This document shows positions 19,166 to 21,220 of a stretch of DNA of 32,000 nucleotides, one piece after another. Every line of letters begins with the position of its first letter. Within the stretch, counting starts at the first letter, position 1. Under the pieces are notes generated by a model. It ran no database searches. It saw nothing but the letters and a program-made list of their open reading frames with translations, and was not told the origin of the DNA. Position numbers and translations under genes: made by a program. This stretch comes from Candidatus Saccharimonadota bacterium (GTDB lineage Bacteria; Patescibacteriota; Patescibacteriia; 2-12-FULL-60-25), in NCBI GenBank assembly GCA_963718585.1, contig OY970357.1:510001-542000 (forward strand), read 5' to 3'.

Positions 19166-21220
19166 TTATTCGTCGGAGGTCTTCTTATGCATGAAGAGCC
19201 ACGGCATCTTTGCCGGCAATCGGGTCCCGAGGATGCTCCGCAGGAATGTCCGGGTCACGAAAATGGCAGTGAACAGCGAGACCATGACACCGATCGCCAG
19301 GGTCAATGCGAATCCCTTGATCGATGCGGAGGTGAACATATACAGCACTGCACATGCGATCAACGTCGTCGCGTTCCCGTCTCGGATGGAAGGCCAGGCG
19401 CGCTTGAATCCTTCTTCCAAAGCCGTGACCGGTGAACGACCGCTCTTCAATTCTTCTTTGAGACGTTCAAAGACCAGGACATTCGCATCTACGGCGATAC
19501 CGAGCGACAGGATGAAACCCGCGATTCCGGAGAGCGTCAATGTGACGGGCACGAGCTTGAAGATCGCCCCGGACACGCCCACGTAGAGGACCAAGGCGAA
19601 GATCGCAAAGAGCCCCGGCAGTCGGTACCAGAAGAGCATGAACAGGGCGATGAAGAGGAAGCCATACAGACCTGCCACGAGCGATTTGTTGACGGAATCC
19701 TTTCCAAGCGTCGGACCGACCGTCTCTTGGGACACCAAGTTGATCGGGACCGGGAGCGCACCGGCTTGGAGGCGTTGCGCAAGCTGTTTCGCGTCATCGA
19801 TCGTGAAATTCCCGTTGATGACGGCCTGACCGTTCGGGATCTCGGTCTGCACGACCGGCTCGGAGATCGGCGTTCCATCGAGGAAGATCGCGACCGGCTT
19901 GCCGACGTTGCGCTTGGTGATGTCCGCGAAAAGCTTGGTCCCTTCATCGTTGAACTGGAGCGAGACCTGCGCCGAACCCGACTGCTGATCGAAGTCGAGC
20001 TGCGCGTGCTGAAGCTGCTTCCCCGTCAGGCCCGTGGACTTCCACTGATCCGGCGACGGGACAAAATCGGTCGTCACTGACTTCTTATAGTAAATGACCC
20101 GTGGTCGGATATCGTACACCGGCCGTTCATCCGTTTTGAGGATGATGTGATATCCGAATGGCGTTTCCACGACATCGGAGATCTGTCCTTTTTGGAGCTT
20201 AAAGGCCGCATCTTCGAACGCCGGGACCATATCGCCCTTGCCGAACCAGCCGAGATCACCTCCGCTTTGTGCTGCACCGGGTTCCTGCGAATATTTCTTG
20301 GCCATGGCCGCGAAATTCTCCGGCGTGAGTTGCTTGAGGATCTCCTCCGCCTTCGCCTTGGCCTGATCTTTGGTCATGGTCGTGGAAGACGGCGTACTCT
20401 GCGCACCCGCGTACTGGATCAGGATATGACTCGCGCGGACTTCCTGACCCGCCTCTTTGACGTCCTCGATCTTCGCGACAACGTACACGTCCTGCGCATC
20501 CAGCACCTGCGGGACCACGGTCCCGGTCGTGTGGTAGTCCTTGATCTCACTATAGAGCGGCGCGTACTGCGGTTTGTCCTTGATGAAACCGAGATCCCCG
20601 CCCGCGGCTTTGACCGCATCGTCATACGAATGATCACGTGCCATCGCCTCGACCGTGGAGGGATCCGCGATCGCCTTGGCGAGGTCCGCCTCTGCCTTCT
20701 TCTTGATCGCCACGTTGTTCGCATCCATCTGCTTCTGTTCATCCGCGGTCAATGGTCGGGTCGGCTCCGTATTCTGCTCCTTGAACTCGAGCGTCGGCGT
20801 CTCCCCAATGAGTTTGATCGCCTGATTCACGTCACTGATGCCCGCCAGCTCGACCGTGACGCGCCATGACGCCCCCGAGCGGGCCGTGGTCACGAGCGGC
20901 TCGGAAACACCCAACGAGTTCACGCGGCGTTCAATGACGTCGCGAACGCCGTCTACCGCGCTCTGACGGTCTGCCTGCGGCACTTTGCTCACATCCGCCT
21001 CGTACTCGAGATGTGTCCCTCCTTGGAGATCCAGACCGAGGACGTAGCCTTTATCGATATGACCGAGGTGGAATCCGAACCACGAATCGATCTTATCGAT
21101 GACCGTATTGGCGGCCGGTGGATAGGTTATGGCCCCCACGGCGAGGGCGAGAACGATCAGCGCATAAATGCGCTTTTTGATGGCGGCGCGGGAAAGCGTC
21201 CGAGAAGCCGGTTTAGACAT
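19166..21220 (-). CDS. secD: protein translocase subunit SecD carrying an inserted parvulin-type peptidyl-prolyl isomerase region in the periplasmic P1 domain
   Basis: SecD motifs [56 protein letters not shown] and [17 protein letters not shown] flank residues ~150-380. That stretch contains a canonical parvulin domain: VRASHILIQ...[38 protein letters not shown]...[11 protein letters not shown]. Confidence 0.92.
   Translation of the reverse strand: [684 protein letters not shown]

What the first reader, a model, noticed from the sequence alone, without database searches (positions are those of the whole stretch)
20081..20773. SecD with parvulin-type PPIase domain(s) inserted in its periplasmic P1 head: a translocon-chaperone fusion
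The 684-aa SecD has normal N-terminal ([14 protein letters not shown]), P1-base ([18 protein letters not shown]...AGALPVP) and TM ([17 protein letters not shown]) regions. Residues ~150-380 are an insertion. Residues 261-366 (nt 20123-20440) are an unmistakable parvulin/PpiC rotamase: [55 protein letters not shown]. Residues ~170-250 look like a second, degenerate parvulin-like or PrsA/SurA-like half ([36 protein letters not shown]...[10 protein letters not shown]). SecD's P1 head is thought to grasp emerging preproteins on the trans side. Embedding a prolyl isomerase or chaperone there would physically couple translocation to folding, a job normally done by separate PrsA, SurA or PpiD proteins. 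I am not aware of this fusion being characterised.
Basis: partly seen in the sequence, partly recalled or inferred. Interest (0 to 1): 0.7.

Follow-up and report, generated by a model that had tools for sequence, protein, structure and literature searches.

The report
SecD with built-in prolyl isomerase module
A protein-export subunit (SecD) of a tiny-genome Patescibacteria bacterium carries two protein-folding (parvulin) domains spliced into its outward-facing arm, and this conserved but apparently undescribed design would join protein export to folding in one molecule.

Summary
Window 19166-21220 (-) encodes a 684-aa SecD, with secF directly downstream. About 236 residues lie between the Pfam SecD_1st model (P1 base) and the P1-head model, where Thermus SecDF has about 30. 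The insert holds two parvulin domains. ParvB (about 259-368; Rotamase_3 E = 4e-40) keeps both catalytic histidines and the proline pocket in 56 of 56 relatives. ParvA (about 160-258; 31 bits against a cutoff of 21.7) lacks both histidines.

It is not a chimera. All 120 listed relatives carry the fusion, and the junction segment matches at full length in at least 80 species-representative genomes, including Ca. Uhrbacteria, Falkowbacteria, Magasanikbacteria and Buchananbacteria. Single-parvulin SecDs (Kuenenbacteria, Parcubacteria) and SecDF-fused forms (Peregrinibacteria, Abawacabacteria) have the insert at the same site. One close relative lacks exactly the cassette.

An extra finding: in single-parvulin forms the parvulin is circularly permuted, with the His-bearing β1 strand following β4. 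In the window protein, parvB appears nested inside a permuted parvA. That rests on a structure model only.

Most likely function: a foldase tethered to the translocon, analogous to non-covalent PrsA/PpiD/SurA-Sec partnerships. Enzyme activity is untested. No paper describing the fusion was found.

The parts
19166..21220 (-). secD coding sequence (684 aa plus stop), carrying the parvulin insert
   Evidence: ORF list. TIGR01129 secD scores 394.5 bits against a cutoff of 244.4. The fold matches SecDF 5yhf, 5xan and 3aqp.
21041..21220 (-). N-terminal cytoplasmic tail and TM1 (residues 1-60)
   Evidence: AF2 predicts helices at 11-32 and 34-48. This is the least conserved part of the protein, at 41% identity to relatives.
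20771..21040 (-). Sec_GG motif and SecD_1st (N-terminal part of the P1 base; residues 61-150)
   Evidence: Pfam Sec_GG 61-76 and SecD_1st 90-150. The region aligns to T. thermophilus SecDF 35-119. Mean identity to relatives is 76%.
20447..20770 (-). Linker and parvA: a degenerate, His-less parvulin domain without an N-terminal β1 strand (residues 151-258)
   Evidence: Rotamase scores 30.9-31.0 bits against a cutoff of 21.7, matching profile positions 9-96 only. hhalign against parvB gives 97% probability, E 2.7e-11. GGDLGF (207-212; 208-212 tallied) is conserved; the β4 sequence '[10 protein letters not shown]' has no histidine. pLDDT is above 90.
20117..20446 (-). parvB: a canonical parvulin PPIase domain with its catalytic residues intact (residues 259-368)
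   Evidence: Rotamase_3 E 4.3e-40. H265, H358, M331, F335, F326 and S311 are invariant in 56 of 56 relatives; L323 is kept in 55 of 56 and E313 in 54 of 56. Foldseek target-normalised TM-scores are 0.83-0.85 to the SurA P2, PrsA and Pin1 domains. phmmer hits SurA at 1.8e-23 and PrsA at 4e-20.
20078..20116 (-). Trailing strand '[13 protein letters not shown]' (residues 369-381), the probable β1 strand of the permuted parvA
   Evidence: It aligns with the conserved 'EVKASHILIK' strand of the single-parvulin SecDs. The AF2 strands 245-268 and 356-379 are of equal length and their end positions sum to 624 at both ends. Sequence tests for the window protein itself were inconclusive.
20039..20077 (-). 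Connector into the P1 head (residues 382-394), including the conserved 'W-K-x-T-G-L' entry
   Evidence: Alignments A2 and A3. Alignment to T. thermophilus SecDF resumes at query 387 = Tt 150.
19748..20038 (-). P1 head subdomain (residues 395-491)
   Evidence: Pfam SecDF_P1_head E 2.3e-31, profile positions 18-114 of 114. Mean identity to relatives is 72%.
19169..19747 (-). C-terminal transmembrane bundle (residues 492-684) with the conserved '[15 protein letters not shown]' motif
   Evidence: Pfam SecD_SecF_C 494-661. D578 and N580 are invariant. The motif aligns to T. thermophilus 'AVDGNVLSFERIKEE'.
18258..19160 (-). secF, 5 bp downstream of secD
   Evidence: Pfam SecD_SecF_C E 2.8e-54 and Sec_GG. 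A SecF-like ORF follows the fusion gene in 73 of 81 sources.

Best explanation
This is a functional SecD, the proton-driven accessory subunit of the Sec translocon, encoded with its partner SecF.

Its extracytoplasmic P1 domain carries a two-domain parvulin cassette at the junction between the P1 base and the P1 head:
- ParvB is most likely an active, non-phospho-specific peptidyl-prolyl isomerase.
- ParvA is a catalytically dead parvulin that probably acts as a scaffold or peptide-binding platform. This parallels SurA, where the P1 parvulin is inactive and P2 is active.

The cassette sits on the trans side of the membrane, next to the head that is thought to grip emerging chains. It would therefore meet unfolded secretory proteins as they leave SecYEG and speed or chaperone their folding. 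That would be a covalent version of the PrsA/PpiD/SurA-translocon partnerships of other bacteria.

Topologically, parvA appears circularly permuted: it enters at helix α1 and leaves after a trailing β1-like strand. ParvB appears to be nested in its β4-to-β1 hairpin.

Shown computationally: the architecture, its conservation, the intact catalytic residues, the cassette character and the taxonomic spread. Inferred: enzyme activity, action on nascent Sec substrates, the role of parvA, and the nested topology in this particular protein.
For: - Domain calls and scores.
- The SecD core is intact. Sec_GG, base, head and TM bundle are present, the AVD(578)AN motif is invariant, and secF is adjacent.
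- ParvB conservation: H265, H358, M331, F335, F326 and S311 are kept in 56 of 56 relatives. ParvB is 62% identical to relatives, against 68-76% for the SecD core domains.
- By endpoint-consistent alignment these residues map to Pin1 H59, H157, M130, F134, F125 and S111. The Pin1 phosphate-binding basic residues are absent.
- The parvB fold matches SurA P2, PrsA and Pin1 at target-normalised TM-scores of 0.83-0.85. The insert as a whole matches SurA 1m5y.
- ParvA is homologous to parvB but lacks both histidines.
- The insert replaces about 30 residues of T. thermophilus SecDF, between Tt 119 and Tt 150, inside the periplasmic P1 domain.
- The fusion is conserved across many Patescibacteria lineages in single, tandem and SecDF-fused forms.
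- In 46 single-parvulin forms, the β4 histidine is kept in 45 of 46 and the histidine of the trailing strand in 44 of 46. Moving that strand to the front extends the Pfam match to profile position 1 and adds 9-12 bits on Rotamase_3. AF2 places it as a hairpin directly after β4.
- In the window model, two 24-residue strands (245-268 and 356-379) fit one continuous antiparallel ribbon.
- Literature precedent for non-covalent coupling: PpiD/YfgM with SecYEG (PMC9643414), SurA with the holotranslocon (PMC9987972), and PrsA-like Mdp/Mpn444 proteins on SecDF in Mycoplasma (10.1101/2025.04.25.650208; 10.1101/2024.09.05.611430).
Against: - No enzyme or secretion assay exists for this protein.
- pTM is only 0.43, so the position of the parvulins relative to the head, to SecF and to SecY is not defined.
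- The residue at the Pin1 Cys113 / bacterial Asp position is Glu313 or Pro314, depending on where a one-residue gap is placed.
- A relative 81% identical outside the insert lacks the cassette entirely (P0191). About half of the related SecD cluster representatives also have none. The module is therefore not essential to SecD function.
- The permutation of parvA in the window protein is not supported by sequence tests (31.0 against 30.4 bits; no extension).
- Whether these genomes lack a stand-alone PrsA-like foldase was not testable.
Confidence: 0.65

Rival explanations
1. The parvulin cassette is a non-catalytic chaperone or substrate-clamp extension. It enlarges the peptide-binding surface of the P1 head, acting as a holdase or 'longer arm'. 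Isomerase chemistry would be irrelevant, as with the PPIase-inactive parvulin domains of PpiD and SurA P1.
For: - ParvA has lost both histidines yet keeps its fold and its GGDLGF core.
- Chaperone function independent of PPIase activity is established knowledge for SurA, PrsA and PpiD (from my own knowledge; PpiD context in PMC9643414).
- The same site in E. coli SecD holds an unrelated expansion of about 200 residues, so the site tolerates bulk that need not be enzymatic.
Against: ParvB's catalytic histidine pair and proline pocket are invariant in 56 of 56 tandem forms. Both histidines are also kept in 44-45 of 46 single forms, even though one sits on a relocated strand. Such conservation is not expected if only bulk or generic binding mattered.
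Confidence: 0.2
2. The cassette serves a purpose other than general secretory-protein folding. It could help assemble or regulate the SecDF/SecYEG complex itself, dock to the cell wall or S-layer, or service one dedicated substrate class such as the pilins abundant in these bacteria. Alternatively it is a near-neutral, mobile domain insertion.
For: - The cassette has been gained or lost cleanly between close relatives (P0191 against P0138).
- Its copy number varies: none, one, two, or longer inserts of 780-940 aa.
- ParvA diverges quickly, at 41% identity.
Against: - The insert persists across deep lineages: the named ABY1-type candidate phyla, Parcubacteria, and Peregrinibacteria/Abawacabacteria.
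- ParvB is conserved at nearly the level of the SecD core, which argues for selection on the active site.
- No evidence for a dedicated substrate was found in the gene neighbourhoods.
Confidence: 0.12
3. The fusion is an artefact: an assembly chimera, or a frameshift or gene-calling merger of a prsA-like gene with secD.
For: None was found. The only formal possibility is that the window comes from a metagenome-assembled genome.
Against: - The reading frame is continuous, with SecD segments on both sides of the insert.
- The same architecture occurs in all 120 listed relatives and in at least 80 species-representative genomes from independent studies.
- GC content is uniform across the gene.
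- The model is confident across both junctions.
Confidence: 0.01

Closest known systems
SecD/SecDF of Thermus thermophilus and Deinococcus radiodurans (PDB 3AQP, 5YHF, 5XAN)
   Same: Both have the Sec_GG motif, P1 base, P1 head, a C-terminal TM bundle with the conserved AVDxN motif, and a partner SecF.
   Different: About 236 residues (two parvulins) replace the connector of about 30 residues between Tt 119 and Tt 150 at the start of the P1 head. SecD and SecF are separate genes here.
SurA (E. coli; PDB 1M5Y), tandem parvulins P1 (inactive) and P2 (active)
   Same: Both have a tandem of an inactive and an active parvulin. The best NCBIfam PPIase hit covers residues 175-368 against SurA 197-386. 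SurA P2 is 45% identical to parvB.
   Different: There is no SurA N-terminal chaperone domain or C-terminal tail, and the score is 83.5 bits against a cutoff of 394. The domain arrangement does not superpose (rmsd 22-32 Å). The module is embedded in a membrane protein, and parvA is probably circularly permuted with parvB nested inside it.
PrsA foldase lipoprotein of Firmicutes (PDB 4WO7, 6VJ4, 1ZK6)
   Same: Both have an extracytoplasmic parvulin PPIase acting at the membrane-wall interface of bacteria without an outer membrane. Identity to parvB is 41-42%.
   Different: PrsA is a separate lipoprotein dimer with an N/C chaperone domain. Here there is no such domain (80.7 bits against a cutoff of 343), and the anchor is SecD itself.
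PpiD/YfgM-SecYEG and SurA-holotranslocon contacts in E. coli (PMC9643414, PMC9987972)
   Same: In both, a parvulin-fold chaperone is positioned at the periplasmic face of the Sec machinery.
   Different: In E. coli these are non-covalent and transient. PpiD's parvulin is inactive (from my own knowledge). In the window protein the link is covalent, at one module per SecD.
Mycoplasma pneumoniae 'dome' translocation-folding complex: PrsA-like Mdp/Mpn444 proteins on SecDF-SecYEG (10.1101/2025.04.25.650208; 10.1101/2024.09.05.611430)
   Same: Both are genome-reduced bacteria in which PPIase domains sit directly over the Sec translocon and contact SecD(F). Each has one active and some inactive PPIase domains.
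   Different: In Mycoplasma the PPIases are separate lipoproteins forming a trimeric chamber. Here a small cassette is spliced into SecD's P1 domain.

Membership tests
SecD (TIGR01129 / Pfam SecD_1st, SecDF_P1_head, SecD_SecF_C) | Whole-protein score above the curated cutoff | tested here: met
   TIGR01129 scores 394.5 bits against 244.4, with model positions 1-397 matched across residues 61-660.
SecD (TIGR01129 / Pfam SecD_1st, SecDF_P1_head, SecD_SecF_C) | Sec_GG motif, P1 base and P1 head subdomains | tested here: met
   Sec_GG scores 20.4 bits against 20.3 (marginal). SecD_1st has E 2.7e-16 and P1_head E 2.3e-31. LGLDLQGG is invariant.
SecD (TIGR01129 / Pfam SecD_1st, SecDF_P1_head, SecD_SecF_C) | C-terminal TM bundle with the conserved membrane Asp of the proton pathway | tested here: met
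   SecD_SecF_C covers 494-661. D578 in AVDANVL is invariant and aligns to T. thermophilus AVDGNVL. Assigning that Asp to the proton pathway is from my own knowledge.
SecD (TIGR01129 / Pfam SecD_1st, SecDF_P1_head, SecD_SecF_C) | Partner SecF encoded alongside | tested here: met
   secF lies at 18258-19160, 5 bp downstream. A SecF-like ORF follows in 73 of 81 sources.
SecD (TIGR01129 / Pfam SecD_1st, SecDF_P1_head, SecD_SecF_C) | PMF-dependent stimulation of protein export | not testable with these tools
   This needs in vivo or proteoliposome assays.
Parvulin PPIase (Pfam PF00639/PF13616): parvB, residues 259-368 | Profile score and parvulin fold | tested here: met
   Rotamase_3 scores 137 bits for the whole protein and 114.6 bits alone. 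Target-normalised TM-scores are 0.83-0.85 to SurA P2, PrsA and Pin1.
Parvulin PPIase (Pfam PF00639/PF13616): parvB, residues 259-368 | Catalytic histidine pair and hydrophobic proline pocket (Pin1 H59, H157, L122, M130, F134) | tested here: met
   H265, H358, M331 and F335 are kept in 56 of 56 relatives and L323 in 55 of 56.
Parvulin PPIase (Pfam PF00639/PF13616): parvB, residues 259-368 | Acidic or Cys residue at the Pin1 C113 position | tested here: inconclusive
   E313 (54 of 56; D in 2) lies in the S-x-E-P loop. A one-residue length difference makes the equivalence to D112 or C113 ambiguous.
Parvulin PPIase (Pfam PF00639/PF13616): parvB, residues 259-368 | Measured cis-trans isomerase activity | not testable with these tools
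   This needs an enzyme assay.
Parvulin domain: parvA, residues about 160-258 plus 369-381 | Profile score above cutoff and homology to parvulins | tested here: met
   Rotamase scores 30.9 bits against 21.7. hhalign to parvB gives 97% probability, E 2.7e-11.
Parvulin domain: parvA, residues about 160-258 plus 369-381 | Catalytic histidine pair | tested here: not met
   The β4 sequence is '[10 protein letters not shown]' and the trailing strand is '[10 protein letters not shown]'. Neither has a histidine at the positions aligned to the catalytic histidines. ParvA is therefore predicted to be inactive.
Parvulin domain: parvA, residues about 160-258 plus 369-381 | Canonical strand order (β1 at the N-terminus) | tested here: not met
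   The Pfam match starts at profile position 9. No strand is predicted between residue 150 and helix 159-185. Whether the trailing strand supplies β1 is supported by the AF2 strand pattern and by homology to the single forms, but not by sequence tests on this protein.
SurA (NF008038) | Full-length equivalog score, N-terminal chaperone domain and C-terminal tail | tested here: not met
   The score is 83.5 bits against a cutoff of 394, and only the region aligned to SurA 197-386 (its P1-P2 region) matches.
PrsA (NF002827/NF002846) | Full-length equivalog score and N/C chaperone domain (PrsA is a lipoprotein) | tested here: not met
   The scores are 80.7 and 79.7 bits against cutoffs of 343 and 361, and only the parvulin domain matches.

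The most novel reading that the evidence does not exclude
In a large part of the Patescibacteria, the Sec translocon has a built-in foldase. An active PPIase rides on the proton-driven P1 arm of SecD, so that pulling a chain out of SecY and isomerising or handing off its prolines are mechanically coupled. This module would replace stand-alone PrsA-type foldases in these minimal genomes. The module itself would have a previously undescribed topology: a circularly permuted parvulin that, in tandem forms, hosts a second parvulin nested in its β4-β1 hairpin.
Probability: 0.3. Interest if true: 0.75.

Novelty: new variant of a known kind. Interest (0 to 1): 0.6.

Why it matters
How exported proteins are handed from the Sec channel to folding factors is still debated. 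Current evidence comes from transient contacts (PpiD/YfgM, SurA with the holotranslocon) and from recent in-cell maps of a PrsA-like 'dome' over SecDF in Mycoplasma.

A natural, conserved, covalent SecD-PPIase fusion is independent evolutionary evidence that the SecD periplasmic arm is a place where folding catalysts act. It also offers a compact, one-module-per-SecD system for testing that coupling by structure, cross-linking and mutagenesis.

The fusion adds a concrete example of function consolidation in the reduced genomes of Patescibacteria. Natural variants with zero, one or two parvulins, including a clean deletion in a close relative, provide ready-made controls. The permuted and nested parvulin is of interest for protein-topology evolution and engineering.

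Tried and rejected
- **Assembly chimera or frameshift:** rejected.
- **Full SurA, PrsA or PpiD homologue fused to SecD:** rejected. Only the parvulin domains match, and the equivalog scores are far below cutoff.
- **Sequence tests of the permutation of the window's own parvA:** no gain. The Pfam scan of a rearranged construct gave 30.4 against 31.0 bits, and hhalign of the permuted profile did not extend to β1. The nested topology of this protein therefore rests on the AF2 strand pattern and on homology to the single forms.
- **The look-up of encoding contigs for the identical protein P0001:** no record, so the source genome could not be named or scanned.
- **The listing of cluster members for ten variant representatives:** no organism names.
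- **Primary SecDF structure papers:** attempts to read them for the exact head, base and hinge residue ranges failed. I used the Pfam subdomain models and the alignment to T. thermophilus instead.
- **Literature searches:** SecD with parvulin, PPIase, PpiC, rotamase, CPR or head subdomain found no description of the fusion. The library is incomplete, so this is absence of evidence only.
- **Foldseek of the single-parvulin model:** no isolated parvulin domains in the top 50, unlike the tandem model. This is consistent with permutation defeating an order-dependent aligner, but it is weak evidence.
- **tRNA scan of the window:** none found.
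Full report
**1. What is in the sequence**

The minus strand of window 19166-21220 holds a 684-codon ORF. A 300-codon ORF (18258-19160) follows 5 bp downstream.

Pfam places these domains on the protein:

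| Model | Residues | E-value |
|---|---|---|
| Sec_GG | 61-76 | 3.6e-4 |
| SecD_1st (P1 domain, N-terminal part) | 90-150 | 2.7e-16 |
| Rotamase_3 | 248-364 | 4.3e-40 |
| Rotamase | 265-363 | 7.9e-35 |
| SecDF_P1_head (profile 18-114 of 114) | 395-491 | 2.3e-31 |
| SecD_SecF_C | 494-661 | 8.8e-18 |

NCBIfam's secD equivalog domain model is passed at 394.5 bits against a cutoff of 244.4. It matches as a single stretch that spans the insert. The downstream ORF is SecF.

Scanned separately, residues 148-260 (the piece covering parvA) pass the Rotamase cutoff (30.9 bits against 21.7; profile positions 9-96). The piece starting at residue 261 scores 98-115 bits. Profile-profile comparison shows the two halves are homologous from helix α1 to strand β4 (97% probability, E 2.7e-11, 24% identity).

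So the insert is a tandem of a diverged parvulin ("parvA", about 160-258) and a canonical one ("parvB", about 259-368). The best PPIase family hit covers residues 175-368 against SurA 197-386, the tandem-parvulin part of SurA. Its score is far below the SurA cutoff (83.5 bits against 394). PrsA models also match only the parvulin domain.

**2. Where the insert sits**

Against T. thermophilus SecDF, residues 61-150 align to Tt 35-119, and residues 387-663 align to Tt 150-425. About 236 residues therefore occupy the place of a connector of about 30 residues, at the junction of the P1 base and the P1 head.

E. coli SecD has its own unrelated expansion at the same place (query 394 aligns to Ec 324), so this is a permissive site. 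By homology with SecD topology the whole cassette is extracytoplasmic (inference).

**3. Not an artefact, and widely conserved**

- All 120 listed relatives (56-100% identity, 648-730 aa, from NCBI, JGI, ENA and Logan assemblies, on contigs up to 1.5 Mb) carry the Rotamase families together with the core SecD families. Named sources are "Patescibacteria group bacterium" and Ca. Uhrbacteria.
- A scan of one genome per GTDB species with the junction segment (residues 120-430) confirmed 570 loci. The best 80 all cover the entire segment at 39-61% identity. Their labels include Ca. Uhrbacteria, Falkowbacteria, Magasanikbacteria, Buchananbacteria and the Parcubacteria group.
- A SecF-like ORF follows the fusion gene in 73 of 81 sources. 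No separate parvulin ORF occurs in the window or in those neighbourhoods.
- GC content is uniform across the gene.
- The window itself is an ordinary chromosomal stretch: rpsI, rpoA, rpsD, alaS, mnmA, peptidoglycan enzymes, secA, murB, murC and glyA.

**4. Diversity of the architecture**

I searched 1.84 billion 50%-identity cluster representatives and mapped domains locally. Among the 150 best representatives, 73 have one or more parvulins between SecD_1st and the P1 head, and 77 have none. This ratio is biased upward because the query contains the parvulins.

The forms are:
- about 550-590 aa with one parvulin;
- about 655-705 aa with two;
- 775-940 aa with longer inserts;
- about 1000-1120 aa, in which SecD with the parvulin insert is fused to SecF.

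Named SecDF-fused forms come from Ca. Peregrinibacteria and Ca. Abawacabacteria. Named single-parvulin forms come from Ca. Kuenenbacteria, Buchananbacteria and Parcubacteria.

One protein, P0191 (446 aa, seen on 7 contigs), is 81% identical to the single-parvulin P0138 outside the insert. It lacks exactly the cassette of about 116 residues, between "LEFKEQNPxPE" and "TDxIDFENWQPWK". The parvulin unit therefore behaves as a discrete module that has been gained or lost among close relatives, and SecD can exist without it.

**5. Is the PPIase likely to be active?**

Across 56 tandem-form relatives, H265, H358, S311, F326, M331, F335, F355 and G356 are invariant. L323 is kept in 55 of 56, E313 in 54 (D in 2) and D322 in 52.

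The PDB search aligns residues 260-364 to Pin1 54-163. These are the catalytic histidine pair and the proline pocket.

Pin1's phosphate-binding K63, R68 and R69 correspond to Q, Q and T, so no phospho-specificity is expected. The equivalent of Pin1 C113 (Asp in many bacterial parvulins, from my own knowledge) is ambiguous, being E313 or P314.

ParvB is 62% identical to relatives on average, close to the SecD core (base 76%, head 72%, TM 68%). ParvA is 41% identical.

The AF2 model built from the 56-sequence alignment is confident over the cassette (pLDDT about 90-95 for residues 160-380). Foldseek matches parvB to SurA P2 (45% identity), PrsA and Pin1 domains at target-normalised TM-scores of 0.83-0.85. 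It matches the whole protein to the SecDF crystal structures.

ParvA keeps GGDLGF but has no histidine on either of the strands that would carry one. It is predicted to be catalytically dead, like SurA P1.

**6. An unexpected topological feature**

In the single-parvulin SecDs the chain order is: helix α1, then GGDLG, then "FGYHII" (β4), a short linker, "E-V-[RK]-A-S-H-I-L-I-K", and then the P1 head.

- In 46 such proteins, the β4 histidine is kept in 45 and the histidine of the trailing strand in 44. The following Ile is invariant.
- Moving the trailing strand to the front extends the Pfam Rotamase match to profile position 1 and raises the Rotamase_3 score (99.8 to 108.9 bits, and 96.0 to 107.7 bits).
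- AF2 (mean pLDDT 84) predicts β4 (222-234) and the trailing strand (237-248) as a hairpin.

These parvulins are therefore circularly permuted: β1 follows β4. This puts the domain's entry and exit side by side, which suits a loop insertion.

In the window protein, the homologous trailing strand is "[12 protein letters not shown]" (369-380), without a histidine. ParvA has no N-terminal β1: the Pfam profile match starts at position 9, and no strand is predicted between residue 150 and helix 159. The model shows two 24-residue strands, 245-268 and 356-379, whose end positions sum to 624 at both ends, as expected for one continuous antiparallel ribbon.

The simplest reading is that parvB, a canonical parvulin, is nested in the β4-to-β1 hairpin of a permuted, inactivated parvA. 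For this protein that reading is an inference. Sequence tests gave no signal, and I could not inspect the coordinates.

**7. Mechanism**

Established knowledge is summarised in PMC6028853. SecDF is thought to bind the emerging chain with its periplasmic P1 domain, and to use the proton gradient to move P1 away from the channel, completing translocation.

The evidence here places an apparently active PPIase and an inactive parvulin on that same arm, on the trans side. The best-supported explanation is a tethered foldase or chaperone that meets substrates as they leave SecYEG (confidence about 0.65).

Rivals:
- a purely non-catalytic clamp or holdase role (about 0.2);
- a different or dedicated role, or a near-neutral mobile insertion (about 0.12);
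- an artefact (about 0.01).

The low pTM (0.43) means the model cannot say how the cassette is oriented relative to the head, SecF or SecY.

**8. Comparison with what is known**

The protein is a member of the SecD family and contains members of the parvulin family. It is not a SurA, PrsA or PpiD, because their defining chaperone domains are absent and the family cutoffs are missed by a wide margin.

Functionally it works like the non-covalent partnerships:
- PpiD/YfgM with SecYEG (PMC9643414);
- SurA with the holotranslocon (PMC9987972);
- the PrsA-like Mdp/Mpn444 "dome" over SecDF-SecYEG in Mycoplasma (10.1101/2025.04.25.650208; 10.1101/2024.09.05.611430). Only one of that complex's PPIase domains retains its catalytic residues, which parallels the active/inactive pair here.

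None of those papers, and none of seven full-text searches, mention a covalent SecD-parvulin fusion. Public annotation calls these proteins simply "protein translocase subunit SecD", although precomputed Pfam domain lists already show the Rotamase families.

**9. Verdict**

Two refinements apply: the insert lies at the base/head junction, and the parvulin topology is permuted and probably nested. One major caveat remains: there are no functional data.

It is a new variant of known kinds, widespread in Patescibacteria. It would interest the Sec-translocation and extracytoplasmic-folding fields. Interest: 0.6.

Noticed in passing
Relatives P0138, P0126 and alignment A4 (46 single-parvulin SecDs); window equivalent 20078-20116 (-): In single-parvulin SecDs the parvulin is circularly permuted. 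The His-bearing β1 strand ('EVKASHILIK') follows β4 instead of preceding helix α1, and both catalytic histidines are conserved (45 of 46 and 44 of 46).
   Followed up: yes
P0191 against P0138 (alignment A3): A 446-aa SecD that is 81% identical to a single-parvulin SecD lacks exactly the cassette of about 116 residues. This is a natural clean deletion or pre-insertion variant, seen on 7 contigs from four sources.
   Followed up: partly
P0138, P0191, P0433, P0485 (A3 columns about 493-510); absent from the window protein (would fall near residue 453, about nt 19860): These relatives carry an extra acidic loop, 'DTNEDGKIDxNDxYA', inside the P1 head. It resembles a calcium-binding (EF-hand or TSP3-like) motif. 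A second, independent embellishment of the SecD head in Patescibacteria.
   Followed up: no
window 14334-16724 (-) and 16823-18154 (-): Directly downstream of secF lie a 443-aa ORF with no Pfam match and a 796-aa TrwB/VirD4-like coupling-protein ATPase with a treble-clef zinc finger. They may form a type IV secretion or DNA-uptake module next to the Sec genes.
   Followed up: no
window 12887-13645 (-): A YkuD L,D-transpeptidase carrying a bacterial TSP3 (calcium-binding) repeat, next to a DD-carboxypeptidase (11965-12855). The organism makes and remodels peptidoglycan.
   Followed up: no
Loci L004, L013, L019, L021-L024, L026, L028 and others: Many species-representative MAGs with this Patescibacteria-type SecD are titled 'uncultured Gammaproteobacteria bacterium', and single ones 'Candidatus Binatia' or 'Acutalibacteraceae'. 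One example is OZ246416.1, a 0.89-Mb chromosome. These are probably placeholder or wrong taxonomic labels. I did not verify them.
   Followed up: no
window 21829-22974 (-): Three small ORFs lie between gmk and secA. Two have no Pfam match (101 and 136 aa). One is a weak nucleoside 2-deoxyribosyltransferase-like / DUF4062 protein, below the Pfam cutoff.
   Followed up: no
E. coli SecD (5mg3_D) against window residues 151-394: E. coli SecD has its own unrelated expansion of about 200 residues at the same base/head junction (query 394 aligns to Ec 324). This junction looks like a general hot spot for lineage-specific additions to SecD.
   Followed up: partly
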